A stretch of DNA of 63,534 nucleotides, the filler included, from Hausera hauseri (lineage: Eukaryota): NCBI GenBank assembly GCA_046269625.1. It is 10 parts of 10 records of this genome, joined end to end, with 100 filler letters (N's around TTAATTAATTAA, not from the genome) between each part and the next. Parts side by side here need not be neighbours in the genome. Positions count along the whole stretch, not along the records: positions 59,382 to 63,534 come from JBJURY010731878.1; 9 more parts are not named here. One strand, 5' to 3'. Under the pieces are notes generated by a model. The model saw only the letters and a list, made by a program, of their open reading frames with translations, searched no databases and was not told the DNA's origin. Below, in pieces: positions 2,375-63,534 of the stretch. Numbering within the stretch: the first letter of the stretch is position 1; each line of letters begins with the position of its first letter. Made by a program: the position numbers and the translations under genes.

Positions 2375-2475
2375 TAAGGCCGCCAGATTTTACGACACAT
2401 TCTGCCGCAGGCAATATCGGTCAATCTTCTGGCCGTTTCAACACCGCCTCTGCAGTCTTTCCGTTAAAAGCTGTA

Positions 2476-5423: not shown

Positions 5424-6033
5424 ATCTTTCTTCGTACACCGTTACTATTTTACACAAGGACAGACCTAACAACGTAGACATCTCTAATCTTAAGCCAGCC
5501 TTCTTCATTGACGATGACCAGGATAACAGCATAGTTTTAAATCCCAACTCTATCTTTTCTGCCCTCGAGCCATCATCCAATTTCCTTGATGATTTTAATC
5601 TTTCGCAGCAATCACTATCGCGTCACAATCAGTTCTTTTCACTGCCGTCATCATCCACTGCTCCTTCACCATTTGCTTCTCCCTCATCGCCTGCACATCC
5701 ACTACTCATTTCACCTTCATTGCACGATTCGCTGCCATCTCCAGTCTCGTCTTCTTTGTGTTATCCTTTTCTTTTTCAGCTTCTCCACTTTTACCTCGTC
5801 ATGAAGCATCCTCCCAAAACACCACAAAATCCACAGTATCTCTTCCTCAAACAACTCTACAAGCACCAGTAACATCTAACAGATCACGCAAGTGACAAAT
5901 AGTACTTACAGCAGGGAGAAGTTCATAGATGGAATCCAACGTCTAACTCGGACCAAAAACGAGTAGGTACAAGCTCTTCTTTTTCTACTATAATCCCCAT
6001 TTATTTTCCTCTTCATAGTCTTTATTTTGCCAC

Positions 6034-19942: not shown

Positions 19943-21066
19943 TGTATTTTGTTTCAAATTTTCAATCTTTTTTTCATGGAAATCGACAATCAACTGAATA
20001 GCATCAATAGAAGCGTTTTTACCACTGTTCAAAGGAATAGAACGCAAATGGAGGTTTTGTATTGTCGAAAAACAAACATCTCATCGTATTCTGCAGGTGT
20101 CGTTGACAAATTAATGTCAGTAGTTGCATGGGACAAATGAAATAAGCCTCCGACAATAATTCCAAAGAACAAGAAGTTTTCATCACACTCCAACTGATTG
20201 AAAAGCGGGTTAAAAATCCGTGTAGCGTGATCGTTATATTTGATTTTATTTATTTCCGAGCCCTCTGACCAATTCCATATTGTCGCCAAATCATTTATTT
20301 CCAATTCGGGTAAGTTGGTAGTTTTCAAATTGACGGAGTTCCTCAAAAAACAACAAAAATGTCGATTAGTTACAGTATACCAATTTCCCCTTAAATCCAA
20401 ATACTGCACATTTGACAGTTTCTTTAACAAGTAAATGAATAGATCTGTACGAATTCCAACAATGTCGTCCGTTTCCAGAGAAAAGATACAACAGGAAATC
20501 TTGATTATAATTCAACGAAATTTTTAGACGTTTTTTGGAACAATCTTCAACATGGGCAGAAGACACATGTCGCACAAGAATTCTTAGATGCATCGACAGA
20601 TTCAGTAGTGGTTTCATAGTAACATAGCGTTTCAAGAACGGTATAATAGTAGTCATGAAAGTATACCGAGAGTTTGTTAATGTTCTGATCATTCTACCTG
20701 TTATGGAATCAATTATGGCCAAATTGAAGTCCAAACAAGTTTTTAGAGAATATATCAATATATAATCCTTGAGAGAAAAATAGCAGTATACCATATACAA
20801 AAGGAGTTCGAATCACAGTTTCAAAGGATGTCAGGTGACGTTTATTAAAAATCAGTGGTCTGAAAGACTGTGGGTCAGGAAAATCAGAGGTATTCCAGGT
20901 GCATAGGTTTAAGGGTTGGCCGTGGAAATTGTTTGCGAGTTTTGTTGAAAGTTTGTCGATAACATGGCTGATGGATTTGGAGTACTTCCACAACTTATTC
21001 CAATGAAACGTAAAAAGAAGGTGGAACTCAGTGTGCTTTACAATGAAAACAGCATAGTGAACGCAT
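19943..21066 (-). pseudogene. Host-like frameshifted ORF with an LRR-like motif, occupying the 5' LTR position of copy B
   Basis: LKKLSNVQYLDLRGN fits LxxLxLxxN. Overlapping minus-strand ORFs follow an AAAAATG at 21066 and end at an AAAATACA terminus (19943). Confidence 0.4.
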
Positions 21067-21661
21067 TTTTTAAAGGCGTCCCTAAGTAAGTCAAAGCTTG
21101 ATTAAATGAAAGGTGATAAGACAGCTAGATGTGAAACTATTAAAAGAAATGTGTTAAAGTCGATTACTTCAGAAGTAACTGTAGTAGAGCTCCTATATGA
21201 ATCTGAGTAGATGGATGTGAGCACATGGCGTCAACCCCCCCCCCCCAAGGAAGGAAAGAAACGAAGTGCTTCGGAGATGAGTCATGAGGTAGAAAAAACG
21301 ATACACACATACACGATTATTAGGGCGGAGATAGGTGACACACAGTCACAAAGTGGATACACACAATCACGCGTCCTGCATGGATTTTAGGTTGTGTAGA
21401 AATCTGAATTTCGCGCAAAAAAAATTTTTTTTTTAATTTTGGTGGTCGGGTAAAATATAGGCTTTAAAATCAGATGAATGTAAAATGTCTGAGGCAATTG
21501 CCTCAAAAACATTGTCCAATTTCAAAATGTGAATGACTGCTGCTTCAGTATTGATACAATTNNNNNNNNNNNNNNNNNNNNNNNNNNNNNNNNNNNNNNN
21601 NNNNNTTAATTAATTAANNNNNNNNNNNNNNNNNNNNNNNNNNNNNNNNNNNNNNNNNNNN

Positions 21662-23364
21662 ACCAATAGATCATGTGAGGCAAGAAAATCTGAGCCTATT
21701 ATGGGAGATTTAATATTGGCCACGTGGAACTTTCAAACAAACTTATCTGGCAAGTTGGTGAAAGTGAAAGTCAATTCCGTGGTTCCTGCAACATGCAACG
21801 GTTTTCCACTGGCAGTGAAAAGCAGAGGAATAGAAATTGCAGTGGATGTAGGGGTAAAGGACAACGGAAGGAGTGAGAATGCAGCTACTGAATCTATTAG
21901 GAATTCGATATGTGAGGTATCTCTGCATAACAGTGCAGCTTTTAACAGAAATACTGCAGAAACGGTGTTGAAACGGCTAGAAAATTGAGCGATATTGCCT
22001 GCACCAGAATGTACAGTAAAATCTGGCGGCATTATTAGTTTTTTGAAGGATTTGAAGAAGAGGAAGAAGAGGAAGGAAAAGGAGGAAATTTATCTTTGTA
22101 GTGTTTACAACAAGGTACACATGACCTAGTCTCTGACTGATATTTGTTGTGGTATATGCAGACAGGATTGTTTGTAGCGTATCGTTCGCTATAGAATCGA
22201 CAGCCCAAGAAGCATTTCCTTGCATCCTTTCGAAAATTCGTGCGACGGAAGCAAGTCATACGTCCGCCAGGTGAAATGGATGGAGTAGAGTGCATTGAAA
22301 TGCTTCTCTCCCTTGAACGTCTGGTGTCACTTCGTCTAGGCCCATTAAGATTGTTTAGTTGGGTGGTAATGGCCGAAATTGACTGGTGTAACTTTTCAAA
22401 CTGTTGCTGCATCATTTGCAATTGTTGAGTGAATAATGCTGTGTCTGTAGTTGCAGCATATGTGGTTGCAACCGGAATTGGTAGAGAACTATTGGCATGG
22501 AGAATCTCAAAGGATTTGTCAGCCATTATGGCCAGTTTGGAGAAAGTCGGATGGCTTTTGATTTCCTATCGCGTGGACGTTAAAATACTTTTGTATTATA
22601 TTGTCAATCGAAGGATCCGTGACATGCAGTACAGCTTTACAGAGTGTTTCGTAAGGTGTGGAGGATTGTAGCAACTCGGAGATGTTACTAATCAGCGATG
22701 TTGTTGGATTTTAACCACTTTTGGTGGAATTGGAGCCATGGTTTGCTGGAGTTGTTCTTGACAAGGAAAAATTTCACACAAGGTAAATTTAAGGAAGTTC
22801 GTGATTGTTGGGAGTGTGGCAATCGATAGACGTTGCCTGTATTTGTGTATTTATCATCCGAGAAGGATTAATTTGGATCCTATCTACCCCTAAGGCGGCG
22901 GTGGAGCACCAGATAGATGATGGGACGTTCGTTGCATATGAAAAGCAAAAGGGAGTCGGAAGGATGTATTATAAGCGCTTGATATGTGAAATAAAAATAA
23001 GAAGTGTACTACGATGAGGACAAAGCGTTATATAAAAGCTGTGCTGTATCGCTGAGTGGCGTTCTTATGGTTTTTACATGTTGATTATTGCTTGAAGACC
23101 AGGAAAGAAAAGGGTAATGAGGTGAACCCAGGGAAAAGATAAAATGCACGGGGGGCTTTGGCGGTTTCCTTCTCGGTTAAGGAAAGGTTTGTGCGTACAG
23201 CGCGGGAAGCAGTGGCAAATGATGATTGTGACAAAGGAATGTCCAAGGTTGTTAAGCTTAAAAATCCTTTAAAATGAAAATTTGTGCTAGTTATAAAAGA
23301 ATTGTATATGCGCAAAAAATTGTCAAACCGGTGGTCACAAATCAGTGAAAAAAATCTCCCCACC
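21662..23364 (-). mobile_element. Ty3/gypsy copy C: 5' UTR, gag and protease, truncated by the contig end
   Basis: Nucleotide-level homology to about 851-2750 starting at CACAGGTGGG, with internal deletions. ORFs 22035-22526 (Gag C-terminus) and 21733-22032 (protease FLIDSVAAFSLL). Confidence 0.93.
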
Positions 23365-28543: not shown

Positions 28544-30718
28544 TCATGTAGAATAATGTCCATATGCGACAATTTTATTTTTCTGGATCCATTGCCTTTT
28601 ATCATCAAATGGGTCCAGCGCTTTCTTCCTTGTTGGTATTGTCATCAATTGATGATTTTTGGTCCCAATTCACTCCTGTTCCACCACAGTCAAACAACCG
28701 GTTTTGTATGCTTGTAAGTAGCTGTCGAACTGTAAGTCAATCTGTTTCAGATTTATGCCCTTGCATTTGATGACTTGTATGGTTTGGGTTTTGAAGGCAT
28801 AGGATTTTGGCTGTAGGAAAATCGCCTCTTGATACTAAACGCAGCCCTTGCTCTTATCTTTAAATTTCCCAATTACAGATGCAAAACGAGTCGAGTACAG
28901 CGGATCACTTTTATCATAGTTAGAAGTGTCTAACTGCTCGTTTGCTATCATCGCCGGTAACAATTGTGATCTCAAATGAACACCACGACGTACGATGAAA
29001 AAACTGTCTGCCACCAGCAGCGATATTTAACTCGCTTTTAAACTAGTACCTGTCTCCAACTCGATATAATTCAGTTCATACATACGTAACTTGGATAGAT
29101 CAAGTACGGCCTGACCAATGTATAAGGGTCTGTCTAAGGTGACCATGTCTTTATCAAGGAGAATGGCAACGAGATCATCGGCTATTATAATACTGTCTTT
29201 AAACTGTGCCTTATTAGCATAAGTAAAAAGCTTTTTAGCATTATTACACAATCTTAAGTTGGACCTTTTCAGTAGATTTTCAACTGTTTTGCCACACAAA
29301 CTACTGTTCGTCAGCTTAAAGAAGTCCTTCTCAAAAGGATTACTTACTGCAGCCCTCTTGGAAGTATTTAAATCGATGTAATATTTAAAAACATAACCCT
29401 GGTCAAATTCAACAGCTCGATGAACTTTTTCATCTACAGCGCCTAACTCGATGTACAATTGTAAAAGGCGATAATGAATAACGTAGTTGGACTTATGCTC
29501 GTGTCCGCAACAATTTCTTTACTTTGGAACCAGGAGGACATTGGTTGATAGGAGCAAGAGGCAACTGATCTAAATTATCGTGCTTGTCAGATAGGATGCT
29601 TAAATCAACCTCAAAGACTAAACCTCGTTTGTCCCTAACAGTATCAATAAAGGGTAATTGCTCAATCAGGTTGTTTAATTTATCTTCATAATAAATCCAA
29701 GTCAAATTCGCAAATGGCAGAGGTTGAGATAAAGCCCAGCCGTACAAATTATTTACATTTATATACAAGAGACTAATGCTTTCATCGGTTACAACCCTAT
29801 GCTTATTAACAAAAGTCATACCACCGCGAATTCCTGATGGAAAGAAACTATGCATTTCAAAATCTTGAATGAGCGCAATCTTACAAGGACCTGATTTTAA
29901 TGCTGTTGCCCAAGATAAACCGGGAATTGAAATGAAGTTTACTGTCTCTAAACCATCTTGTAACCTAATCTCCTTTTTAAACCGTTCAAAAATATCACCT
30001 AAGAAGTATACATCGAGTTTCATGCATACCAACATGTAATCTAAAATACGGCTACAACTATATTTCGACCAAGCCCTTTGTGCTTCTTCATAATCGCTGT
30101 CACTAACACAATCCCATTTTGGTAGTAATTTAGTAATCGACTGCAAATCATTGCATGTTTTGGCTGCAGTGTATGGAAAAATTCTTTTTCCCTTAATGAT
30201 GTCAGAAGGAAAAGCCGATTCTGTAAATAGGTAGTTGTTTAAGTTAGAGGCTAAAGTCTTTAATGAAGCCGATAAAAACTGAACAGTGTCTAGAAATCTA
30301 ATAGTAACCGACTTTATACCCGAATATCTTATCATTGCAAACAGTAAAATTTTTCAGTCGTCTGTGGAATAACATTTAATTCCCAACTGTTCAATTTCCT
30401 CAATGAGTGTTTCACAATATGATGAAGATCATATCCACGCAAATTATGACACATAAGTGGTAAATTATATCTGATCTGACGAGCCAAGTTACATTTGTTG
30501 CAAGCAGGTCCTAAGAATTTACCTGTAACATTACAGTGATCTCGAACAAAGTCCGAAACGTTTTCATGACAAAGGTAACACGCTGTAGCATTTTTGAAAA
30601 GATACCATTCAGCAGATGGTAACAGGATTATGGATTTTTTCGCATTTTCATACCATGGGAAAACAAGTTTCTTAACAATTGCCTCCAAACAGACCAGAAA
30701 CTCAACTATGGAATTTTA
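28544..30718 (-). pseudogene. Protein-primed family B DNA polymerase (Polinton/Maverick-like) with N-terminal endonuclease VII-like domain, disrupted
   Basis: CYLC..VRDHCNVTGKFLGPACNKCNL, HNLRGYD, RFLDT, GIRGG, YINVNNLYG (degenerate YxDxNxLYG), FFKLTNSSLCGKTVEN, KCKGI, KALDPFDDKR...AYGHY*. Confidence 0.9.
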
Positions 30719-37440: not shown

Positions 37441-40304
37441 TCTCCTTCACTGAACCTAATAAGGAGAGTATGATTAAAGTCAACGAGAACTTAGAAGGGA
37501 AATATGGTGTTCGTGAAGATACAGGTACTACTATCGACATACAAGATTTGCGAAAATTTCTAGATGCTCAGCCTGACACTACTAACCCACAAATTTTGAT
37601 GTCTAGAAAAAAATACGCAGATAAATTAGGGCTATTAGAAGTCTACCATGGTCTAGTAGAACAAGAAACTAAATGAGTATGCTATAGCACCAAAGCAAAT
37701 TGATATGACGCGGAAAAAGAGTATTCCGACAATAAATAAAACGGTAGATAAACCAGGAACCTCGACAGAAATCGACTTAGATGCAGAGCCTGAGTTTACG
37801 GTTGAAAAGTAGTCAAGATTACTGAAGATGATATTGCAGAAAAAGAATTTATGGAACCATTAATACTTAAAGTTACGAAAAACAAAGTCCGCAGCCCTTC
37901 ACTTAAGCAAAAACATAGAAGTCGTTCGCGATCGCAAGTAACTAAAGAGAAACTAAAAGAAACGAAAGATAGGAAAATCGCTGCAGAGTGCAACGTAGAA
38001 TCCAGCTTCAATACACCGGAATTTGGTCAATTTACACCCACAGAGGTGAGCAGAATTGTAGAGTCGATTAATGAGATTAATGAGGTTTACCCACTCCTCA
38101 CTAGTGAGGAAGAAACGGAGAACATTAAAGAATTTGACCACAAAAGTGGAAAAATGTCGATGAATTAAAGAAAATGAGAATTAGATGCCACGATCCCGAG
38201 ATACTGCAGCGGAATTTGGAAAGGCTTAAGCAGATTAGTGAACAAGTAGTTATATCTGGTAAAGAGCAACAATTTGCAGAGAGGTTATATAAAAGTTTAA
38301 AATTATGTAGTGAAGGAAAACTCGTTGAAGCAATCGACATAGGACAACCTGAAGCGGTACCACCTGAAACGTTGATAAAATGGAAACGTGAATTAGAATC
38401 ATGGATTAAAAGTGGAGTCGAATTCTCGGAAGGATGGAGTAAAATGAATATAGCGTTGATGTAAAGGTAGCTAAAGCTAAAACGTTATTCTCTACATTAG
38501 AAGCTAATCCCAAATTGAAGGGAGTAGTCCGTAATTCAGAACGCATGATGGATGAAATTCGATACGCAATGATTAATCGACTTAGTGAAAAACCGGTTAG
38601 CAATCGCAGTGATATCAATTTAGAAATATTGGGTATAGACCCAGTAGATATTCCTCCCTTAGTGGAAATGATAAAAATTTCCTTTGCTTTACCTAGACAA
38701 TATACGAATTTAGAGGATCGTATTAAAATGGAGAATGAAAAGAGATCACAAATTATTATCTTGAGAAATCGAATTATGTTTATGAATAACGAAGAAACCA
38801 AATATGTAATAAAAGCTTGTATCGTAGAATTCGACGAATATAAGGATGAGTTCAATCATGTCAGTCGGATTATGAGTTTCATAAAGGTCCAGATGATGAA
38901 TTAAAGGATTCTTATAAAATGCTAGAAAAGGCGATATTGGAAAAACCTGTAATAGCGAACCAATTGCATGAATGGTCCGAATTAATATCGAGACTAAGCA
39001 AATTTGCAGAAAGCGAGCCTACTATAAAGAGACAATTAGAGGAAAGTGCACGTAACTTGGATACAATGAGAGCGGAAGTAGATATCCGGACTCAATTCGA
39101 CGCATTACGCAAATAAATTTTATGAAAAGGAAACAAGAAGTGACGATGTTGGAAGAAATGTATAAAATGATCGAACAGACAAACTTTACAGAAAAGCGAA
39201 ATATGACTTGCAATTTTTGCTCAAGATTAGGAAACATCCGACTAGAAGGAATTCAACATTTAAAAGCTAAATCTATCGACGAAATCTCAACTCAAGATCT
39301 TGAAACTTCAAATGTTTATCCAGAAAATAGAGCAGCTATAGAGGAAGTGATGAGATTCCTACATAAATCACAAGAATGTATGCCCGGAACAGATCAAAAT
39401 TGCCATACCGAGTTGATAAAAATAGGAAACGACCACCATCTTAGTTTTGAAGAAGTTAAGTTCGTAAAGATATTACTCGATGCGATAGATCCTGACTCAA
39501 AAATCATTAATGAGATGTACGAGTTAGCCTTTTTTTAGTAGAAATGGCAGAAATCAATGGTGAGAAGATGAGGCAATTGATGCCAAAATTTCGACAAGTC
39601 GAAGAAACGTCATTAGAACCAAACAAAGAGCAATGGGGTTAGATGAACTAAATAAAGAATTTGAAATCTACGGAAACAAGTATGCTTTTACTGAGTCAGA
39701 AATTAGCAGGAAGATAGAATTTGTACAAAGATGGCAAAGGATGCAATTATCGAGCTAACCGAATATCATCAAAGAGGATTCATTCCTGAGAACGAACTGG
39801 GCGAACTATTAAAACTAACTCAATACGCTTGTGGAAAGGGAATAGGATTCCGGACCGCACAGATGAAAGAAATACAACCAAGATTAAAGGAAATTCGAGA
39901 GAATGTACAAATAATGAATACGGTGCTAGTAGACTACGGACTTCTAGAAGTTGGAAATGAACCAGAATGGGATGCTTACTTAGATGCGATAAATGTCAAA
40001 AATCCGATGACTCCAATACGGTTAAATGAACCAGAAATGTGTCCGCGAGGTAGGAGGTTTAATGTGGAGATGCTACTGATTCAGCGCTAACTGAACAGAT
40101 TTAATCGAACTAATTAACGTAAATATTCCTGAAAATAAGATAAGACAACTTATTCCGACTCTAACACACAGCGCGGTGCCGAAACTTTTAATAAGGAAAT
40201 ATACAAAAATCTTAAGGGCTAAACCTGAGGTAACGATGGAAGTAAAAATATCATGCGAGTGGATGGATGAAAAAGAATGTGAGTTAACCACATATTCCTG
40301 TGAG
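37440..40304 (+). pseudogene. Long unknown E/K-rich ORF following gag (no Pol motifs)
   Basis: About 2.9 kb of continuous frameshifted + ORFs. No DTG/DSG, YxDD or integrase motif seen. Confidence 0.5.
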
Positions 40305-46900: not shown

Positions 46901-48843
46901 AACTCTCTTTAATGGCCAAAGATGTGTGGGTTGACATTCTCGTGGGTTGAATGTACTGGATGATTGCTCCGTATCCTGCAAATTACACAAAAGAAGACAT
47001 ACACATCTACACAGATGGATAGACATTCAAAGAAACCACATACGCAGGATACGGATGATGATTCTGAGTTGGAGACTAGTTTTGTCAGTTGTCAGTATAT
47101 TTTTTTTAATATAAAAAAGAAAGGTTTCTGATCTTTATTGTGGTTTTATTATAGTCAGGATCAGTTGTTCTAAACCTTCAGGGCTATTTAAAAGTATGGC
47201 TGTATTATCTGAATGTTACCACCGATTGTGAAAAGATCATAGTTTGCACTGTTTTCATCCTCTTTGACATTTCTCATTACATTTTCGGTATATACACCTA
47301 AACATACCTCCATTTTGCTTTGTTTTTGTAGATCCTTTGTTCTATTACATGCATTTGTTATGTATTTTATATTTTTGACTTTCCTGAATTGTCATCTGAT
47401 GTTTGTGGTACAGTTTCTACAGTTGTCGCTTTTCCTTTTTTCCTTTCTCGCTTTAATTTTCGTCTTTCATTCATGAGTCTCAATGTTTTATTTATGATGG
47501 AGTTCTGTTTCATTTGGAGTTTCCCTGATATTATGACTTGTGCTTTTAAAATGAGAACGTTCCTCGTGGGTGTGGCTAGCTCGTTGGACGTCATGTCCTC
47601 TTGTATTGCAATTAGAACTTCCAACTTGTTTTGAATTCGATGTTGTCTTCTGGGGGTATGATCTTTAAATCATATCGCTTTGGTTGGACTTCCTTTTATG
47701 ACTAGTTTAAGCTTTATGTTTAAATCTGCTATCAGCAACTCATGATCTGAGCCACAGTCTGCTGCTATTAATGTCTTTGTATCTGTTATACTTGATCTCC
47801 ATTTTTGTTGCATTAGGATGTAGAATATTTGATTCATCGTATTATCATCTGGTTAAGTCCATGTATATAGCGTTTTGAGGTGTTATTTAGAAAGTTTTTG
47901 TGACGGACAACATATTTTTAGCAGGAGTATATATAGGTCCGGACGGAAGGCAACGGGAAACTACCGTCTGTATTTTCCAAGTTTTTTTAAATGAAGATTT
48001 ACAGTATAGCAGAAAATTCACTGGGAAAGTAAAGGCGGCCTGGCGTTATGCAGACATCATAACCCAATCATGTGCCCTTGTGAAGGATACATGTAGACAC
48101 TAACTCTACATTTCCCTGTAGTCATGAAATGGATAAGACAGGGTAATGATGGTGAAATTAAAACGAAGAAAACAAGATATACATTTTATAAAAGCATATC
48201 CTCTAGCAACGAGAAGCTCAGAAGAAGAAATTGAACAGCTCTATGAAGCAATGTAAATTTGGAGAACTTACCTTAGTAATATTTTAATGCCAAAGTAGGA
48301 AGTGAATCGGATGGAGAATCGTGACTAGCATTACAGCCAGCGGTGTTGGGGTCGGCTAGTCCCTTTTAGGGGCGGTGAAATGTAATAGTCTACTGATATC
48401 CCACTTTCACTCAAGCCAACCCAATCTCAAGTGGTGCAGGCTGGAAACCGTCCGTGAGGTCACCATATATATATATATGTGGTAGTTAAATTGTTGAAAA
48501 CTTGATATTGCATGTCCCAGTCTTGTAGTTGTAAAATGTAATTAGAAGGGGCTGGGCTGGACAATATTAAAACCTCTAAAATCATACGCTCGTATGCGCC
48601 TTGTCTAAACGAGTTAAGTTGTTTGACGTCTGTTCATTCTTTCAGACATAAAATTGAAAGGTGAGTGTTCCCGAGCAAGTGTTTTAAGTGACCTTTCTTG
48701 AACTGTTATTTGTTTCAGGTAATCACGTGACTCTGCAACTGAACGAAGGTGACAGAGTCTACGTAAAAACTCGCCGTTCTGTTCATCTCTATGGCCGACC
48801 CTTTGATGCCCACAACACCTTTTCTGGACGCCTGATTCAGTGA
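43192..48843 (+). CDS. C1q-domain-containing protein; exons 43192-43332, 45278-45407, 48719-48843 (upstream exons possible)
   Basis: GT-AG junctions join in frame (phases 0 and 1) to give 131 aa: MCSTFAFTAS...VIFKNVINNIGDCYDSATGVFTALK|AGVYDFSF...YTSAS|NHVTLQLNEGDRVYVK...HNTFSGRLIQ*, a complete globular C1q domain. Confidence 0.92.
43891..43938. repeat. (AGT)n microsatellite within a C1q intron
   Basis: Near-perfect trinucleotide run. Confidence 0.95.
46190..47060 (-). mobile_element. RNase H-containing non-LTR retrotransposon, 3' fragment
   Basis: WIPGHCEITGNKLAGRLAK (RNase H), CRHCNFEEETVEHILF (C-terminal CCHC), and an inverted IYTDG piece near 47005-47060. Confidence 0.75.
47150..48330. 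mobile_element. RTE-like LINE endonuclease fragments in both orientations
   Basis: Minus strand: YTWT.PD..TMNQI.YIL..KWRSSI...ADCGSDHELLI. Plus strand: EEEIEQLYE...FNAKVG. Confidence 0.75.
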
Positions 48844-49291
48844 GACATTTCAGACCCAGAACCTGAGTTTTAATTATCAGGTTCAATACCAGGATTCTTT
48901 ATTCTAGCACCATGATTACACTAAGAAATTATAAAACCATATTACACTAAGAAATAATAATGCACACACATGCGCTTACACTGCTGCACGATTTGAAACA
49001 AATTAAAAAGAAAGATTGTAATGAACGATTGTTCGTCAGATTTTCTTTCAGTTATGTCATTAATCGTAAAGTAAATAAATTCAATGAAGCATCTATCAAT
49101 TCTGATTGCTTGTTACAACTATACAGATTAATATTGATATATCCTAATGAAATAAAAACAAATTAAAAGATTTCATGAAACAAAACCACAATTGTTTGGT
49201 TTTTGTTTGGTTTCGTCATGTTTTAATTATTTGTCATATCTTAATTACCGTGTTACTAACTTTAGACCAAAACCTTTAAAGAAATGGGTCA

Positions 49292-55156: not shown

Positions 55157-55349
55157 NNNNNNNNNNNNNNNNNNNNNNNNNNNNNNNNNNNNNNNNNNNN
55201 TTAATTAATTAANNNNNNNNNNNNNNNNNNNNNNNNNNNNNNNNNNNNNNNNNNNNGCGGCTAATCAAGTTAAAATTATTTGTTATCCCCATTAATTAAT
55301 CATTTACGTGAAAGTCTCTCCCAAAGTAATTAGTGAGGATTGAACAAAC

Positions 55350-55368
55350 TGGTGCCGTGACCCGGAAT
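55350..55368 (+). promoter_or_regulatory. Primer-binding site, tRNA-His type, after LTR end ...GAACA (55346)
   Basis: TGGTGCCGTGACCCGGAAT is near-complementary to the tRNA-His 3' end (expected TGGTGCCGTGACTCGGAT). Confidence 0.85.
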
Positions 55369-55494
55369 CATTATTTCATAACCTTTGGATTAAGAAAGTA
55401 TCACCATTACCACAAGGAATGGAACAATTTATTATCCAGAAGAAAACGAACCCTACATACTAGAGTATTTAAGAAATTTAAGTGCGAAGAACCT

Positions 55495-56340
55495 ATGGCA
55501 AATCATAACGTAGAGCAGGTGATTCAGTCGAAGGCTAATTTCACCTTACCGATGAAAAAATTTTCGGGCAAAGAAGACATACAGGATTTCATGATGGAAT
55601 ATGAAGTATATTCCAAAAGGTTCGGATGGGACGACAAGCAAAGAGTGGAAAGATTACCCCTTCGTCTAAAAGGGACGGCCCTTATGATCTATTTCCAGAT
55701 GCCGGAAGAAGGCAAGAAGGACTGGAAAGTAATTAAAGAAAGGCTGCCTCAAAAGATTTTAATAGATCCCTCTGGAAAGGGCAGAATCGAGGAATTCATA
55801 AGAAGGAGGCAACGTAAAGATGAAACAGTCCTGGCCTTTATCTGTGCATTGGAAAAACTTGCATCAAGAGCATATCCGGACGTTACGATACGGAATAACG
55901 CATTGTTGGCCCAATTCCAATACGGATTAGAAGGAAGATTAAGGACGATAATCTCACAAGCAGACCCGCCTACGTTCCAAGAAGCAATAAGAAAGGCGCA
56001 GAAAGCCGAACGAGATGCGGAACTGTATAGGTGGAATAAGTCTAAAAGTAATAACAATGGTTACGACAAAAGAAGAAACAATAGTACTCAACGGTATCAA
56101 CAATATGAACGAAACAGAAGCCCCTCACAAACGTCAGCCACGGAAGCTGAATCAGATGTGGAAAGGAAAGTCAGATTTAATTTACGGAACGATGGGGAAA
56201 GGCAAGTTATAGGAAGAAATCTAAGAAGGATGGAAGATCCTTACCTAACATGGATTCCGAAGGAAGACTGAAGTGTTTCAATTGCAATAAATATGGGCAT
56301 ATAGCCAATGAAAGTAAGAAAGAAGACAAAAAGAAAGAAA
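55495..56340 (+). CDS. gag: Ty3/gypsy-type Gag (capsid domain open; zinc knuckle after a frameshift)
   Basis: FSGKEDIQDF..YE...GWDD....LPLRLKGTA, RRQRKDETVLAF..LEKLASRAYP, QFQYGL, PPTFQEAI, then CFNCNKYGHIANE. Confidence 0.92.
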
Positions 56341-57890
56341 GTGGCAATTATATCAACGATACATTATCACAACGCACGAAGAAGCAATTAGAAATAGAGC
56401 TAAAGGAGTATGAAAGACAGCAGCAAATACTGAAAGAAAGTAGTATCTATATGATAGAAAGTCAACCACAGAAACAAGTATCTCATAAAGGAAGAAAGAA
56501 AGGCAATAAGAAAATAGCTGATGTAGAGGTTGAATCAAGAGAAACATCAACAGAGAGGGAGGAGGTAGTAAAAGAAAAGAAAAGAGGAAGAAAGAAGAGT
56601 AACCTCAGCACATCTTCACCCTCATTTAGTCCAGAAGAAACTCAAGCTACGCCAATATTCGAAGATGCTATATAGGATCAGATAATAAGGAATCCAGGCG
56701 TAGATCTAGACGAAGAGGAAGATATCATTCAGGCAGTAATGACTGTCGATCCCGATAATATTATCGATTTGGATAAAACGACTACCACAGTATTAAAGAT
56801 ACTTACCAATAAAATAACGGCAAAAAGGATAAACGAAATATTACCTCAATTGGTGCTATTAGCACAAGACACCAGTCCTGTTAGAGAAATAGCTTGGACG
56901 GTATTGGCCAAAGCTGACGAGGACAAGAAAGAAAGAAACGAAGTAATACGGACAACGGTAAAGGAAGATAACCATGATATGAGGGTCATTAGGATGAACG
57001 AAGGAGACGGTATCTAATCTATAAGAAAAAAGATTGAGGAGTTGGAACCTTTTTATCAAGGAAGCCCTTATGGACTAAATTATTGGGGAAGGACGTTATA
57101 TAACTACGATAAATTATTGAAAATTGGATGTAGAAGTAAGAATTACAATCCAATAACTATAACAGAAATACACTAAGAGGCAAGAGCACAGGCAACAGTG
57201 GAGAATACACTAAGGGAAATGGAAACACATGGAGTAGAAGAAATCTCTACGGGTGATACACAAGATATCACAGTTCAAACGGAAGCCAATAGAAGAGGTA
57301 AGCCGAAAGGGACGAAAATAAGTGACATTCGTAACAAAAAAGATAGAAACGAAAAAATAGTAAGACGATTATTATTAGCAGGAACAAATGGTACTCCCGA
57401 GTCGTGGACATAGACCCATTATTAAGAACGTTGTTGGCTAAGCTGCAGACGTCATTTGCCTCATTTGACATGCAGGCAATAATCCCAGGCGAACTGTTCA
57501 CAACGTTACGTAATAATATGCTACTAATAATAGCCAATTCTATAAAAACTTAGAGGAAGAACGGGTAAACGAACTGCATGAGCTAGATATTTTAGAAAAA
57601 AATGTTTTCAACTGGAATTATGCGCGAGAAAGCTAGAACGGCGATATCATATCTTCTATATAAAATAATAGTAATTAATCACCAAACTCAAAATCTAGAA
57701 GAAATTGGGCGGAATATAAGGAGAGCCGTAAAGATTTTGAAAGATACGTTAAGCAATTGGGCTCAATGTAGAGGTGGATGGTTGACTAGCCTGATGACCA
57801 ATATAATAATGTCAGGGGAACAAGGAAAAGTAACAGATACGCCAATTGCGACACAATCCAACATCTCTAGACCAGGCATAACAGGTATGT
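56340..57890 (+). pseudogene. Unknown charged/helical ORF between gag and env
   Basis: Continuous frameshifted + ORFs with no protease, RT, RNase H or integrase motifs. Confidence 0.5.
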
Positions 57891-59281
57891 CAATGATGGA
57901 GATTATTCAAATTCTCCTAATAACATCATTATTGATGCCGAAAGCTGTAGGTATAGTAGCTTATGACTGCTCTGAATCTAGTGAAGGTCAAAAATATTCT
58001 CTAGTGGATTTGGAGAAGTATCCAGAAGCCGAACCAGAACAGTTAACAACGACAAGTGATCTTACATACTGGATATATTAAGAATCCGAATTCATAAAAG
58101 CAAAAGTTAGGGAATATTACGTAAAAAGATCATTTTTCCTGTTTAACTGTGCCTATTTTTCTGGAAATTCAGCTACAATAGAGCCCACGACACCTTTCGA
58201 ACCAATACTTATATCACGAGCAGAATGCCAGGATGCTTTTAAGATTGGTATCATAACAATACAAAACGCGCATATACAAGCAGTTTGAAATCGAATAAAA
58301 TATACCAGAATATTTAGGGCAGGAAGAATAGATAAGATAATGGAAAGTACTTGCAAAGGAGTCAGTTATGACGTGGGAGGTACTACTGCGCCTAGAACGG
58401 TAGCCATCAAAGATTATCAGATTCAGTTGAAGGAATACGAAGTGTTATTCGACTCACATACAAAACTGATAACGACTACGAGTGAAGGCGAATATGATAA
58501 TGGCGAATGTGCTACTGAAGAATCAAAAATGACTTGGGAAACCACTGCAAGTAAATGACATTTAACGTTATTAAAGGAAGAAAAGTTTAATAAGACAGTA
58601 GGAAAACGGCAGAAGAAGAAATAGCGATATATAAAGAAGGAACAAAGGAAGTCAAGATGACAGAAGTAGCTACAATTGTATATTCGGAAAATCCGGAAGA
58701 AATGGTGCGATTTAAAATCACGGGAGTAGCAACTAAGTGTAATGAAGAGATATCAAAAGCCAACTACAAGGGTATTGTCTTATCGAGAAAAGAAATACCC
58801 GGGGCGAAGACCAAAATAGATAAGACATAAAGTTAACGCAATGCTTCAACAATAAGATTGATTTTTTAATCAACTACGTAAGGAAAGAAATCAGCGGATT
58901 ATATCGAGAAATAATAATGAATGAATGCCAGCTGAATTACAAAATAATGCGCAACAAAATGGCATTGGTAATAACGAATTCGGACATGGTAGCGCCCGTA
59001 ATGCCCTTTGGCGACGGAATTATTGGTAGAGTGATGGGCGAGATATTGATAACAATAGAATGTAAAAAGGTAGAAGTATCAGTCAGACCCACAGAAGAAT
59101 GTACATTGGAATTACCTGTGGTTTACCATACAGAACCGAGATATGTGAGGCCAGTAACCAAAATATTATCAAATATTAATGTGAAGCCTACTCCTCTATA
59201 CAACTGCACCTTCAATATGTCGCCAATGTTTAAGATCGACAACGACAAATGGATTAGAATGCCCAAAAGAGAACCAGTGCC
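57890..59281 (+). pseudogene. env: Chuvirus/herpes-gB-like envelope glycoprotein, cut by the contig end
   Basis: Signal-like MEIIQILLITSLLMPKAVG|IVAYDC...KYSLVDLE, ECQDAFKIG, STCKGVSY, NECQL, GRVMGEILITIECKKVEVSVRPTEECTLELPVVY...YVRPVTKIL...C..MSPMFKI...W. Confidence 0.85.
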
Positions 59282-59399
59282 NNNNNNNNNNNNNNNNNNN
59301 NNNNNNNNNNNNNNNNNNNNNNNNNTTAATTAATTAANNNNNNNNNNNNNNNNNNNNNNNNNNNNNNNNNNNNNNNNNNNNTTTGGAGGCCTTTCCTGG

Positions 59400-59578
59400 C
59401 CGGAATTTCTCACATTTTGACGTGAGAATTTAGAGGCATGGCCTCTGACTCCAACTGCATCTATTGATGCATTATTTTCCATGAAACTCCTTATATTTCC
59501 AATAAAATTTTCGTTTGTTGCACTTGTCCGTATCAGGACATTTTGGACGTGCATTATTGTAATTTTCAAGATTTCCAA
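59400..59578 (-). pseudogene. Possible glycoside hydrolase family 10 fragment
   Basis: NVL...FIGNIRSFMENNASIDAVGVRGH resembles the GH10 motif YNV...Y...I..L...GAPIDGIGVQGH. Confidence 0.45.
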
Positions 59579-59675
59579 TCAATCTAATTTATTTGATTTT
59601 ATTTTATATTTATTATTAGCTGCTTAGCAGCTTATATTATTCTGCCTCTAATTTCCATCATTCAAAATAATATTT

Positions 59676-60377
59676 TTAAATATCTTTCACACAAACTCTG
59701 CATCTGGGAATAGTCTTTTCGAAGTTTACATCATTTCGATACGTTTCACCAACTGGTTTGGCAAAACTATCTTGAGGCGTTATTCGTAAGTAATAAACCT
59801 TTGCGTCAGACCAATGGTCGCATTTTCCAGCAACATTATTACATTCAATGAACGGAGAATACCGCAAATGTTCAAGACAGCTTCCTGGAGACGACAATTG
59901 TTGACTGCCAGTGGTATGCATAATTAAACTATACCCTTTCCATAATTCACTCCAAGTTTCCGGACAAGGGGTATTAGGCAGGTTATTTTGATTATGGAAA
60001 ACAAATACATGAGATGGTGCACTGCATACTACGCAGCGAGAAACAAGACTTTTCACCTCGCTTACGTTTACAGGCGTTTCTGTAATTGGACTCAAACTGC
60101 TCAACCAATATGATCGATCACTTCGAATGTTAAAATGACATTCTTGACCTCGATCACAGTGAAGAAGAGGAATGATACTGAATTTAGACAAATAGGAACT
60201 AGGACTACCTAAGTCCACTGACATGAGCATTTCACTAGCATCGGCCATTACGAAGCTGTATCCTTTCCTAATAAGTAGGGTACCCTCGGGACAATTATAT
60301 GAATCATTGTTATTCAACGCTTGAAAATGACGAGCAAATAAAATTTCCGTTCGATTTAGGGCTGCGGGTTTGACCAT
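59676..60377 (-). CDS. Stand-alone type IV collagen NC1 domain (two C4 repeats), intronless, 233 aa
   Basis: FARHFQ..CPEG..GYS, DLGSPSS, RSYWLS, SRCVVCSAPS, CPETWSELWKGYSLIMHT, LSSPGSCLE..PFIEC, RCRVC. No Gly-X-Y repeats, and an in-frame stop 14 codons upstream of the ATG. Confidence 0.93.
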   Translation of the reverse strand: MVKPAALNRTEILFARHFQALNNNDSYNCPEGTLLIRKGYSFVMADASEMLMSVDLGSPSSYLSKFSIIPLLHCDRGQECHFNIRSDRSYWLSSLSPITETPVNVSEVKSLVSRCVVCSAPSHVFVFHNQNNLPNTPCPETWSELWKGYSLIMHTTGSQQLSSPGSCLEHLRYSPFIECNNVAGKCDHWSDAKVYYLRITPQDSFAKPVGETYRNDVNFEKTIPRCRVCVKDI

Positions 60378-60749
60378 TATTTTGCAATTTCTGTTCGCAA
60401 TTTCGTAATTTTGTATTTATCCCACTGTGAGTACTTCTGAAATTCATCGGCTAATTATTTAAATTTTTCCGTTAATGGTCATGGTAGAAACCATGTGGAT
60501 TAAGTTTAACGGATTGCTTGTTAAACCGATGGAAGTTGTCAATGTGATCAATATGATCGCAACTGCTGTTACCTTATAAATCTCCAATTGCGTCATTTGC
60601 ACTTCACTGACAAAACACTATCATTCTCTGACACGATTAAACCGACTGTGGGTTTTTCGTTGTTGTTGGTTGGAGAATGAATTATTATATGGCTTAAATA
60701 GTACATTCGTGCTTCAAATGTACAAATTATTCTTGTTCTTATCCATAGT

Positions 60750-60860
60750 GTGAATGTTTTTCTTCAATCGTTCGCGTGCCATTTTGTTGCCGGCATATAC
60801 CGGTTTAACATCTCTTCCGACTTCATCAATCACTTGCAAAAGACTGTTGTATTTCTTGGG
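60750..60860 (-). pseudogene. CDK2-associated protein (CDK2AP1/DOC-1) fragment
   Basis: KKYNSLLQVIDEVGRDVKPVYAGNKMARERLKKNIH versus the family motif [37 protein letters not shown]. Confidence 0.85.
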
Positions 60861-60954
60861 GTTTTCTGCTGCAGTACTTTGGATAAGAGTTTGTATTTAA
60901 CAATTCAATTATTTCAGAGTTTCGGATATTTTCAACTCCTTTTGAATGTGTGTA

Positions 60955-61190
60955 TTTATCAATAATTTCTATTGCAACTTCTTTCTGGGTGATAACATGC
61001 TTTGCTAGCTTCACTTTTGCAAAATTTCCTTTACCAATAGTTCGAATAAATTTGTACTTTCCAACATTCGGCTGTTCGTGCCAATTCGTTGAAACTCTGT
61101 TATCTAAACCATCTGTTACTGAATCGTTATGCAGAGTAGAATTTGATGGAAAATCGTTTGTATGGACATAATTTTCCTGCAACGGAGGTA
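60955..61190 (-). pseudogene. MARK/PAR-1 kinase N-terminal fragment (subdomains I-II only)
   Basis: EQPNVGKYKFIRTIGKGNFAKVKLAKHVITQKEVAIEIIDK. The catalytic Lys appears as Glu and kinase homology stops abruptly. Confidence 0.88.
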
Positions 61191-61198
61191 ATCCTTGA

Positions 61199-61737
61199 TT
61201 ACTCGTCATCACCGAAATCGTCGTGATTGAATTTCGAATCCAATCCGAACTCGTCATTGTCCGACTCAGCATTAACATCTTCCTCGATAACATTTTCACT
61301 ATCGGTCGCTTTCTCCACGTAGTATTTTGGCGACGACCAAGGAAATCCACGTTTGTTCAACGCAAACTCACAGAGTGTCGTCAAACCTGAACAACATATT
61401 TTCCGCAACCTGACTTCAATTCTGACGGTGAAATATTCAAATTTTCGTTGATCTGTCTGACCGCTTGCAACAACATCGATATACTGGCACTTGGATCATC
61501 GTAATCTTGAGGTTGTTCCATTTTATAACCGCATTCCCGCACGAGCCATGCACCGAGGCTTATGAATGCATTGAATTGTTCTCCTGGGTTTGTTGGAATG
61601 GCAAAATAATGTCGCGAAATAGGTTTCATATGAAATGGTTTGCAAAAGTTTCTTTCATAACCTAATACCTTAAGCTTATCCCATACACTTTCTCTCTTTA
61701 CAAAAAACTTTATAAACACCACCGGGTCCTTCTTCAT
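61199..61737 (-). pseudogene. IFT57: Intraflagellar transport protein 57, N-terminal half, intronless, one frameshift
   Basis: DKLKVLGYE, SRHYFAIPTNPGEQF, AWL, QPQDYDDP, ELKSGCG, GFPWSSP, then an acidic tract. The C-terminal coiled coil is missing. Confidence 0.9.
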
Positions 61738-62065
61738 TTTGAGAATCTGCGGTCACTGCCGTAAACACTGAACATGCAATTATAAAACAATAGTTTTGTA
61801 AAAACTGTTTGACAACCTTCCAACCATGGTTATTCCTGCCCTCCCAGTTCCCCGAACCCTGCCAGGGATCATGTCACACTCATTATTTTACATACTCTTT
61901 TGTATCACGCACACTCATTCAACCAACATGAACACATATTTACACATTCATACACACATATATACACTATATATTTATATATACACTATATACATCCCCT
62001 ACCCTTTTTCACTTAATCTTCTTCATGTTGGCCGGATTCCCCAACTAATCAGTCAGGTTCCAACA

Positions 62066-63125
62066 ATCGGTATGTTTTCAACAGATCTGTTGATACCGTT
62101 TGGACAGAAATGATGAATATCGTTATTCTTGAAGATAACGAAAATTTATATTCAGGTAGGGGTGAAATCATCAAACTTTTAAAAGAAAAGAAAGGAGTGA
62201 GAGACCAGTGGAAATCGGTTCAGAGAAAAAGAGAAATTGAAGAAAATTGTGGCTCAGGAGAGGAAGATTACCCAAATGGAGCTGTCTCAGAGGCTGAATG
62301 TGGGCAAGAGAACATTGCAGCTTTTGCTGGAGAAATTGGGAATCAGGAAGCTGTGCAGTCGATTCATATCACGCTTCTTTACAGTCGGAATGATGGACAG
62401 ACGTCAAACAGCATGTAAAAACAATCTTCGCATGTTATAGGACATTGGACCCAGTTTATTGGCAAATATCGTGACTGAAGATGAAACGCCATTATGTCTC
62501 TATATTCCCTCCTCCACGCGAGAATCAAAAGAGTGGGTTTTGCGTGATAAGAAGCCACCAAAGGTGCTCCGTTCAATCACATCTCATCGAAAATGTGTCA
62601 TGTTGAGCGTCTTTTGGGACTCCAAAGGAGTCGTGAAGGTCGATATCACGGCGACAATCATCAACTATGAGTACTACATAAATGTGGTCAATGAAGTCAG
62701 GGACCTCCGATGCAAGCCGCGCAACCAGAACTTCTATTTGCTGCACGACAACACTCCTGTACACACATAACATCGAACACAGCAGGAAATTGCGAAAAGT
62801 GGATTCGTGCTCGTCGACCACCCTCCATACAACCCTGATATTGCATTCAGCGATTTTTGCTTGCTTAACCACCTCAAAAAAGCATTTGCGAAACCAGAAA
62901 TTCGATTCCAAAGACGATCTGAAGGAAAATGTGGAGAAATTTCTCTCGGAAAAAGGTTCAGACTTATTCGAAATGGGGTTAAAACCATGGTCGAACGCTG
63001 GAGAAAATGCGTGTGTGTGTAAGAATTGTTGAAAAATAAAACCTTTATATGTTTGTTATTTCAAATATGTTTACGTATCTTTTTTATTTATATACAAGTC
63101 TAAGGACTTTTAGCCTCACCACGTA
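62066..63125 (+). mobile_element. mariner transposon remnant, 5' end truncated
   Basis: RKLCSRFISRF, IVTEDETP, MLSVFWDSKGVV, LLHDNT, HPPYNPDIAFSDF, and a 3' TIR-like GGACTTTTAGCCTCACCACG-TA. Confidence 0.92.
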
Positions 63126-63534
63126 ACTATTGTGGCATAACCTATTGAAAACCAAGTATTCTTAGATTAGAACCTTCCTAACGGAATTCATTTCCATAGG
63201 AAAATGTTGATTAGACCATTTGAATTATACTTGAAAAATTCTGTTAGTTTCTTTCATCGAGATATAAGAGAAATCATTTCAACTACTAATGGACAATTGC
63301 CATTCAATTTTCTTAAACTGGTGGATAACTTATTTCACTCATTCACTCCAGCAAAATTATCTATCGAAACAAAAACCACCGAAGATAATGTCAAAAGACA
63401 ATTGCAACAAAATAGTCAAAATTTAAATGCGCCTCTGTGGGCAATGAAAACAAAAAGGACTTACAAAACTGAGAATATTCCAAATGAAATTGTTAACAGG
63501 ATTGGTAAAGTAACAGAGCCATGGTTTTTTGTTT

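What the first reader, a model, noticed from the sequence alone, without database searches (positions are those of the whole stretch)
59400..62065. Five unrelated host genes fused head-to-tail without introns in 2.4 kb
On the minus strand: an LTR-like start TGTTGGAACC (62065, cutting a mariner), a 328-bp leader with TATA-rich tracts, then AAAATG-IFT57 N-half, MARK subdomains I-II, CDK2AP1 core, an unidentified piece, a complete collagen IV NC1 with an AT-rich 3' UTR-like tail, and a GH10-like piece. All are in one orientation and most are truncated mid-domain. This is what serial RT template switching between mRNAs would produce, not a normal gene cluster. No gag-pol is on this contig, so the link to the gypsy family is inferred.
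Basis: partly seen in the sequence, partly recalled or inferred. Interest (0 to 1): 0.8.

Follow-up and report, generated by a model that had tools for sequence, protein, structure and literature searches.

The report
Spliced-leader retroelement carrying host mRNA fragments
In what is likely a flatworm genome, a repeated, likely LTR-type retroelement carries a copy of the worm's spliced leader followed by broken pieces of at least four unrelated host genes, and the leader likely acts as a reusable landing site through which host mRNAs get copied into the element.

Summary
The gene chain is real, and it is not an ordinary gene cluster. IFT57 (aa 1-187), MARK (N-terminus to IIDK), CDK2AP and collagen IV NC1 are firm; GH10 is only weakly supported. 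All four firm pieces are damaged or cut short. Three internal junctions are bridged by identical contigs in a public run at about 6-35 times flank depth. Other copies have a purine tract just before TGTTGG (62065), so that end is LTR-like.

A contig seen in 4 of 4 runs continues from this exon into an SL-RNA-like intron. Unrelated sequences follow the SL end, and precede 60746, in other copies, so this is a variable cargo slot. The 'unidentified piece' and the AT-rich tail are shared family backbone.

Best reading: a non-autonomous LTR-type family that captures mRNA pieces by reverse-transcriptase template switching (known), likely returning via SL homology (not found in my literature searches). 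Not shown: 3' LTR, PBS, parent genes, transcription, or one molecule spanning all pieces.

The parts
62066..63130 (+). Decayed mariner transposon, 5' part cut off by the element; the flank of this copy
   Evidence: Transposase_1 E 1.1e-11; many 85-90% relatives and near-identical contigs at depth 4.6 (X1) and 2.3 (X2)
61828..62065 (-). LTR-like segment starting TGTTGG; 3' limit uncertain (CA|TGG at 61828/61826 is only a candidate)
   Evidence: Loose ends at 62065 in 40 (X1), 8 (X2), 2 (X3) contigs; consensus reads as a purine tract directly before TG on the minus strand; all_depth 23,490 at 61873; candidates listed
61816..61827 (-). Short variable spacer, possible primer-binding site; no tRNA match identified
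   Evidence: Sibling copies differ here (loose ends at 61830, 61822, 61803); primer tRNA not tested
61773..61815 (-). Copy of the flatworm spliced-leader exon, ending ATTGCATG; no GT donor or Sm site follows in this copy
   Evidence: 3' end 8/8 identical to M. lignano SL (PMC8629364) and 7/7 to S. mansoni SL (PMC3970683); 35 nt from 61807 to 61773, as in M. lignano; allele G at 61806 in 4918 of 6186 depth gives CGGT; motif hits once in the window; SL-RNA-like contig in 4 of 4 runs
61763..61772 (-). 10 nt between the SL end and the IFT57 start: IFT57 5' UTR, or partly a dead SL donor
   Evidence: Sequence; 61772-61766 was aligned in the SL-RNA-like contig, letters not shown
61202..61762 (-). 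IFT57 residues 1-187 of about 411; start codon lost, two frameshifts, no introns relative to the protein
   Evidence: tblastn with P0008, 74% over residues 18-126; contiguous at the S|R site where 13 of 17 loci have an AG acceptor
60955..61209 (-). MARK/Par-1 5' piece from a likely start ATG (61209) to IIDK; VAIK lysine replaced; 61209-61202 overlaps IFT57's last codons
   Evidence: PDB MARK2 E 3e-15; similarity to P0045 ends at IIDK; the ATG as native start is inferred, no orthologue N-terminus found
60747..60954 (-). CDK2AP piece (core 60860-60753 plus upstream sequence, likely 5' UTR), cut off at the backbone boundary
   Evidence: Pfam CDK2AP 155-190/209; CDK2AP2/1 E 8e-8 and 1e-7; loose ends at 60745/60746
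60376..60746 (-). Family backbone B (the 'unidentified piece'), shared by copies with other neighbours on both sides
   Evidence: Summed depth up to 5853; 4+3 contigs with different sequence upstream; sibling contigs leave at 60376 and 60414; no Pfam, Rfam or GH10 match
59640..60375 (-). Collagen IV NC1 (stop at 59676) with a short 3' UTR; flatworm-type, damaged
   Evidence: 67% to P0001, 47% to Heterobilharzia; lesions; one X1 contig 59613-60507, 0 differences, depth 28.5
59382..59639 (-). Family backbone C, AT-rich, with a weak GH10-like remnant at 59533-59432; runs off the contig
   Evidence: Summed depth 908-3071 and deletion variants; GH10

Best explanation
This is one copy of a repeated, likely non-autonomous LTR-type retroelement whose internal region begins with a spliced-leader exon and carries damaged fragments of host genes, likely copied from mRNAs by reverse-transcriptase template switching, with the leader likely serving as the site where the enzyme returns to the element. 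Inferred steps: during minus-strand synthesis in a particle supplied by an autonomous element, RT leaves the element RNA at the 60746 boundary for a co-packaged mRNA at a short match. It copies towards that mRNA's 5' end and jumps again (CDK2AP, then MARK, then IFT57). It regains the element RNA when it reaches a trans-spliced mRNA whose SL matches the element's own SL copy. That would explain why the pieces next to the SL start at or near their start codons and are cut at the 3' side. Collagen was likely captured separately at a second slot. The chimeras then decayed and were re-amplified as passengers; they likely make no intact protein. I put the general part (LTR-type, RNA-derived, amplified) at about 0.85 and the full statement with SL return at about 0.5.
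For: SHOWN: sharp end at 62065 with a purine tract before TG in other copies. SL match at both ends to published flatworm leaders; motif hits once in the window, at the boundary, 0.09 expected per simulated window (post hoc). A loose end at 61766, identical in 4 of 4 runs, reads (by eye) as the exon-pairing stem, a hairpin and an Sm-site start 31 nt after the ATG, versus 30 nt in Schmidtea SL genes. Different sequences follow the SL end (4 X2 contigs at 61773, agreement 0.54) and precede 60745/60746 (4+3 X1 contigs); one X2 contig joins 61773 to 60746 without this cargo; X3 record 20 holds pre-SL sequence plus SL plus other letters. Junction-bridging contigs with 0 differences at depth 124.8 (IFT57/MARK), 104.5 (MARK/CDK2AP) and 28.5 (backbone/NC1), against 3.6-4.6 for flank contigs. 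The first IFT57 frameshift lies inside a 0-difference contig of depth 147.7, so decay preceded amplification. IFT57 is contiguous at a site with an intron in 13 of 17 loci (8 of 11 sequence groups). The mechanism class is established in animals (PMC5131818, passages).
Against: No 3' LTR, TSD, PBS or autonomous partner was found (contig ends at 59382). Parent genes were not seen, so intron loss and microhomology are indirect; none of the 17 IFT57 loci is known to be a flatworm. Other contigs stay aligned 4-7 nt past the SL's ATG (61769, 61766), which would fit a dead donor in the backbone rather than a clean SL junction. Part of the SL depth comes from true SL genes. Loose-end tables were cut (24 of 332; 6 of 35). 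No record spans the whole chain, and the window's letter at 60560 is absent from X1's contigs, so the collagen module may have been joined to the three-gene module by assembly through backbone B. The tool warns that contig depth is no copy number. X1 may be the source sample, and X2-X4 may be the same campaign.
Confidence: 0.5

Rival explanations
1. Ordinary LTR-mediated retroposition with the SL as a passenger: a trans-spliced RNA (or an SL RNA) was captured once by the family founder, and later cargo swaps used ordinary microhomology or recombination near it.
For: Junction classes at 61773, 61769 and 61766 rather than one base; the window's SL has drifted (minor allele at 61806); 597 partial SLs near LTR/LINE elements in parasitic flatworms were read as one-off trans-splicing products (PMC12582326 section 6); slots without SL (collagen) also exchange cargo.
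Against: Unrelated sequences begin exactly after the ATG in 4 X2 contigs, the X2 joint and X3 record 20; IFT57 begins 10 nt after the SL, where a trans-spliced 5' end would be.
Confidence: 0.28
2. The element captured a whole SL RNA gene. LTR-driven RNA with an intact donor would trans-splice onto host pre-mRNAs, giving them the LTR and PBS 5' end, so that RT needs only one switch per capture.
For: An SL-RNA-like contig aligns 7 nt past the ATG into this copy (61772-61766), as if those letters were a decayed donor; it predicts the same SL-then-5' end structure.
Against: No GT follows the ATG here; it is not known whether the SL-RNA-like contig carries the LTR upstream; it does not explain MARK, CDK2AP or collagen without further switches.
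Confidence: 0.12
3. DNA-level capture by a Helitron or Pack-TIR element.
For: These elements do build multi-gene chimeras (search listings); the far end is not held.
Against: Starts with TG preceded by a purine tract in other copies; no terminal inverted repeat in the held part; a spliced SL junction and a contiguous IFT57 point to RNA.
Confidence: 0.04
4. Artefact: a cDNA, amplification or assembly chimera. The weak form is that both modules are real but were joined wrongly through repeated backbone B.
For: No record spans the chain; the modules differ 4-fold in depth; run type is not on record.
Against: Three internal junctions sit in identical contigs at high depth, two of them in 3 of 4 runs; frameshifts and substitutions are evolved damage, not library noise. 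The strong form is unlikely; the weak form stays open (about 0.25, compatible with the best explanation).
Confidence: 0.06

Closest known systems
LTR-mediated retrocopies in animals (Tan et al. 2016, PMC5131818; passages read), including the mouse 'Super' retrocopy (four genes plus Alu) and maize Bs1
   Same: Partial mRNAs of several genes fused behind an LTR, short matches at switch points, secondary amplification.
   Different: Here a high-copy family has exchangeable slots, and the 5' slot opens at a spliced-leader exon; no SL role appears in the passages read; 3' LTR not held here.
Partial SL sequences beside LTR/LINE elements in parasitic flatworms (Calvelo et al. 2025, PMC12582326; passages and section 6)
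   Same: SL exon without the rest of the SL RNA, associated with retroelements.
   Different: Those 597 loci were discarded and read as retroelement RNAs that had received an SL at their 5' end. Here the SL lies inside, about 250 bp after the LTR-like start, and is followed by host gene fragments.
TRIM/LARD non-autonomous LTR elements, e.g. taeniid ta-TRIM (PMC4558846; passages)
   Same: Short LTR starting TG, purine tract, no gag-pol, flatworm host.
   Different: The ta-TRIM internal region is non-coding with no protein hits; it has a defined PBS and TSD, which were not located here.
TRIMp3 (Cassandra, Helenus, Ajax; PMC10886601; abstract and passages)
   Same: Non-autonomous LTR elements that carry a small-RNA-gene-derived segment.
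   Different: They carry tRNA or 5S pieces inside the LTR as Pol III promoters; here it is an SL exon, likely downstream of the LTR, and no tRNA or 5S match was found.
SL-tagged retrogenes of dinoflagellates (PMC12014239; passages)
   Same: A genomic SL remnant at the 5' end marks RNA origin.
   Different: Single genes, often functional; not multi-gene chains inside an LTR family.

Membership tests
LTR-mediated retrocopy | LTR sequence at the 5' side of the captured mRNA | tested here: met
   TG start with a purine tract before it in other copies; sharp shared end at 62065
LTR-mediated retrocopy | LTR at the 3' side and a target-site duplication | not testable with these tools
   Contig ends at 59382; no genome held; no second LTR in the window
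LTR-mediated retrocopy | Partial mRNAs of one or more parents | tested here: met
   IFT57 1-187/411, MARK to IIDK, CDK2AP cut, NC1 only
LTR-mediated retrocopy | Introns of the parent absent | tested here: inconclusive
   IFT57 contiguous where 13 of 17 other loci have an intron (further sites), but the parent gene was not recovered
LTR-mediated retrocopy | Microsimilarity at switch points | tested here: inconclusive
   8-nt dual-coding overlap 61209-61202 rests on an inferred MARK start; other junctions need the parents
LTR-mediated retrocopy | Secondary amplification of the chimera | tested here: met
   0-difference junction contigs at depth 28.5-124.8 vs 3.6-4.6 for flank contigs; rough, depth is not a copy count
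LTR-mediated retrocopy | Co-transcription with the LTR | not testable with these tools
   No RNA holder listed
TRIM/LARD non-autonomous LTR element | LTR ending CA followed by a tRNA primer-binding site | tested here: inconclusive
   Only a candidate CA|TGG at 61828/61826, not shared by siblings; host tRNAs not available
TRIM/LARD non-autonomous LTR element | No gag-pol between the LTRs | tested here: inconclusive
   None in the 2.7 kb held; the rest of the element is off the contig
Flatworm spliced-leader exon | 3'-terminal ATG | tested here: met
   Ends ATTGCATG at 61773; all flatworm SLs end in ATG (PMC12582326)
Flatworm spliced-leader exon | CGGT motif about 28-35 nt before the end | tested here: met
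   CAGT here, CGGT in 4918 of 6186 depth; published leaders
Flatworm spliced-leader exon | Same exon found on an SL RNA gene (pairing stem, hairpin, Sm site) | tested here: met
   Loose end at 61766 in 4 of 4 runs, read by eye against Fig. S6 of PMC10899757; donor letters and the full Sm site were not displayed
Functional SL RNA gene (this copy) | GT donor and Sm site after the ATG | tested here: not met
   TT follows the ATG, then IFT57
TRIMp3 (Cassandra/Helenus/Ajax) | tRNA- or 5S-derived segment in the LTR | tested here: not met
   No Rfam match below E 2.7; ARAGORN 0
Helitron / Pack-TIR capture | TC start or terminal inverted repeats; retained introns | tested here: not met
   TG start after a purine tract; no TIR in the held part; far end not held
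GH10 glycoside hydrolase fragment | Significant profile match | tested here: inconclusive
   Not found by Pfam, PDB or the representative search; own HMM iE 0.0022 over 34 aa; sole plasmid hit is a GH10

The most novel reading that the evidence does not exclude
A flatworm LTR-type family keeps a spliced-leader exon at the head of its internal region as a universal homology pad, so that any trans-spliced mRNA can be captured from its 5' end, stacked with others and amplified: a retroelement gene-shuffling platform addressed by trans-splicing.
Probability: 0.42. Interest if true: 0.82.

Novelty: new variant of a known kind. Interest (0 to 1): 0.64.

Why it matters
Multi-gene capture by LTR elements is known from a few loci in flies, mouse and maize. 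If the SL is the return site, trans-splicing gives retroelements a shared handle on a large part of the transcriptome (11-47% of mRNAs in parasitic flatworms and about 30% of genes in Macrostomum, per PMC12582326). That would be a new link between RNA processing and gene shuffling. It could also explain some of the hundreds of SL fragments found beside retroelements in flatworm genomes. It is directly testable from one long-read genome plus RNA-seq. In practice, such elements would seed false paralogues and false SL genes in annotations.

Tried and rejected
No whole genome is held. The protein Atlas gave no answer for backbone B. A 24-nt LTR pattern found 0 stretches in metagenome contigs. No RNA holder was listed. 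No DNA similarity above E 0.2 between this contig and the window's other contigs, so no autonomous partner was identified. Backbone B: no Pfam match at E<=10 in the 10 stop-free frames tested, Rfam only chance-level, one unannotated plasmid hit at E=2, no GH10; the idea that B and C are two halves of one GH10 mRNA was rejected. The two representative-library hits for the GH10-like frame are repeat proteins. No flatworm MARK N-terminus was found (1 hit among 286 candidates). No parent-gene contigs with intron-type loose ends appeared in the cut tables; absence of cover proves nothing. An LTR end at 61775 (CA) was considered and rejected, because unrelated sequences start after the following TG and no TGG follows. 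Searches for the SL 5' motif in paper text found none; Rossi et al. 2014 is not held and Zayas 2005 was not seen. Earlier scan findings: 0 in three look-ups. Supplements of PMC12582326 (SL loci near LTRs) were not opened and may bear on novelty.
Full report
SETTING. The window is ten contigs joined by artificial linkers; the finding lies on the last one, 59382-63534, and runs off its left end. No genome is held. The host is likely a flatworm: the two best named NC1 homologues are Heterobilharzia (47%) and Dibothriocephalus (44%), with an unnamed protein at 67%, and the leader described below is of the flatworm type. A triclad is my guess, not a result.

THE PIECES (minus strand). IFT57: Pfam positions 2-105 and 101-164 in two frames. 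Against P0008 the match starts at 61759 (residue 2) and ends at residue 187 of 411. MARK: best PDB hits are MARK2/4/3/1; similarity stops at IIDK, 60955; the VAIK lysine is E. An ATG at 61209 opens a stretch resembling MARK N-termini (recalled, not confirmed; one search found no orthologue N-terminus), and it overlaps IFT57's last codons by 8 nt. CDK2AP: core 60860-60753, cut at 60747. Collagen IV NC1: near-complete, with a 4-aa and a 1-aa deletion and a C>Y change. GH10-like piece: missed by Pfam, PDB and the representative library, but the single plasmid hit at E<=10 is a GH10 and a 30-sequence HMM ranks it first of 2538 tiles at iE 0.0022. So four firm genes and one weak.

IS IT REAL? Four runs hold the stretch (shares 0.82, 0.38, 0.09, 0.05; type not on record; X1 may be the source sample and all are 2024, so independence is uncertain). 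All four were laid as contigs, then X1 alone on 60300-61765. IFT57/MARK is bridged in X1 (61115-61268, 0 differences, depth 124.8), X2 and X3. MARK/CDK2AP is bridged in X1 (60747-61144, 0 differences, 104.5), X2 and X4. Backbone/NC1 is bridged in X1 (59613-60507, 0 differences, 28.5). Flank contigs have depth 3.6-4.6. The tool warns that depth is no copy number; as a rough ratio the modules are about 6-8 and 23-35 times deeper than the flank. The two modules are each real, but their linkage rests on the assembly.

THE ELEMENT. At 62065 the match ends sharply in 40, 8, 2 and 1 contigs of X1-X4. In X1-X3 the consensus is, on the minus strand, a purine tract directly before TGTTGG, as expected for a polypurine tract before a 3' LTR. 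Depth at single bases is 23,490 at 61873 and 6186 at 61806, so the LTR-like part is commoner than the leader and likely ends between them. I could not fix its 3' end or a PBS. The 'unidentified piece' is backbone: summed depth up to 5853, 4+3 contigs with other sequence upstream of 60745/60746, and siblings at depth about 21 that leave at 60376 and 60414 instead of entering collagen. One X2 contig joins 61773 to 60746 without this cargo. The AT-rich tail and GH10-like piece are also high-copy. This is a family with at least two exchangeable slots.

THE SPLICED LEADER. The high-copy part ends at ATTGCATG (61773). All flatworm SLs end in ATG (PMC12582326, passages). The M. lignano leader is 35 nt from CGG to ATTGCATG (PMC8629364, passage); the window has 35 nt from 61807 to the same 8-nt end, and the commoner allele at 61806 (4918 of 6186) makes its start CGGT. 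S. mansoni's leader shares CGGTTTTAC-like and TTGCATG ends (PMC3970683, passage; others in PMC3795323, passage). A motif built from those shared ends hits once in the window, here; 0.09 hits are expected per simulated window (300 simulations; post hoc). Independently, a loose end at 61766, identical over 30 letters in 4 of 4 runs, reads by eye as a stretch able to pair with the exon's ACGGT part, a 6-bp hairpin, and AATTTT starting 31 nt after the ATG. Schmidtea SL RNA genes have the same layout with the Sm site 30 nt after the ATG (PMC10899757, supplement Fig. S6 text). That contig is likely this organism's SL RNA gene. In the window no GT or Sm site follows; IFT57's start codon lies 10 nt on. 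Four X2 contigs carry unrelated sequence right after 61773 (agreement 0.54), and X3 record 20 has pre-SL sequence, the SL and other letters. Against a clean picture: other contigs stay aligned to 61769 or 61766, so some of those 10 nt may be a dead donor. Only 24 of 332 loose ends were displayed.

INTRONS. An alignment of 18 IFT57 proteins found 17 metagenome loci. 13 of 17 (8 of 11 sequence groups) have an AG acceptor inside the S|R codons; of the 4 contiguous loci, L002 is the spliced form of L011. Further introns appear near residues 86/87, 104 and 143 in some loci. The window is contiguous at all of them. None of these loci is known to be a flatworm, and the parents were not recovered, so this is indirect.

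MECHANISM. Shown: the pieces, their damage, three junctions, the LTR-like end, the SL identity and the variable slots. Inferred: capture by RT template switching (established in animals, including a four-gene mouse retrocopy and secondary amplification; PMC5131818, passages); run-off at mRNA 5' ends forcing further jumps, which fits IFT57, MARK and CDK2AP being 5' pieces cut at the 3' side; return to the element through SL homology; mobilisation by an unidentified autonomous element (no DNA similarity to the window's gypsy contigs). Decay preceded amplification, since the first frameshift lies in a 0-difference contig of depth 147.7. The cargo is likely non-coding passenger sequence. I give about 0.85 to the general reading and 0.5 to the full one. 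The rivals are SL as a one-off passenger (0.28), an LTR-driven SL gene acting as trans-splicing donor (0.12), DNA capture (0.04) and artefact (0.06; a mis-join of two real modules is compatible with the main reading).

KNOWN AND NEW. It works like an LTR-mediated retrocopy; membership as a TRIM/LARD is not established, because the 3' LTR, TSD and PBS are missing. Partial SLs near LTR/LINE elements are reported in parasitic flatworms (597 loci, read as trans-spliced retroelement RNAs; PMC12582326 section 6). About 30% of Hydra TE reads carry an SL (PMC12220107, passage). TRIMs with tRNA or 5S parts exist (PMC10886601, abstract and passages), as do flatworm TRIMs (PMC4558846, passages) and SL-tagged retrogenes (PMC12014239, passages). 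I found no description of an LTR family with an internal SL heading a variable mRNA slot in searches (6 papers, listings only except PMC12014239; 6; 20 of 35 listed; 0); the library lacks most subscription journals and Repbase was not searched. PMC7346339, PMC7986045 and PMC11410931 (passages) added nothing on this point. Verdict: new variant of a known kind; interest 0.64.

Noticed in passing
Read laying, loose end at window 61766 (runs X1-X4): A contig that looks like this organism's SL RNA gene (pairing stem, hairpin, Sm-site start); possibly an undescribed flatworm SL RNA.
   Followed up: partly
window 55257-59281 (+): Broken element with a weak Ty3-capsid-like ORF, a CCHC knuckle and a Monjiviricetes (chuvirus-like) fusion glycoprotein in several pieces; no pol domain was detected between them in the frames tested.
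   Followed up: no
window 10359-10772 (+): A second Monjiviricetes-fusion-like fragment on another contig (Pfam E 6e-6).
   Followed up: no
window 29030-30715 (-): Broken type B DNA polymerase (DNA_pol_B_2, E 3e-8) with an upstream endonuclease-VII-like zinc region; resembles a Polinton-like remnant (recalled label).
   Followed up: no
window 1123-5869 (+) and 15289-23092 (-): Related decayed gypsy-type elements (RT, RNase H, integrase; 76-85% DNA similarity between contigs); no DNA similarity to the finding's LTR.
   Followed up: partly
window 37806-40087 (+): Several 120-160 aa A-rich ORFs in a row with no Pfam match at E<=0.01; unexplained, possibly one broken mobile-element gene.
   Followed up: no
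window 59664 (run X3): One low-depth contig matches the NC1 end and then continues with 111 other letters 12 nt after the stop; may be the parent's or an orthologue's 3' UTR.
   Followed up: no
window 60991-61115 (run X1): Low-depth, diverged MARK-piece siblings with internal rearrangements (joints 61039-61115 and 61060-61115).
   Followed up: no
window 62287-63097 (run X1): An internally deleted mariner derivative (skips 809 bases).
   Followed up: no
window about 48720-48845 (+): By eye, a terminal exon resembling a C1q domain with a 3' UTR (recalled resemblance, not tested).
   Followed up: no
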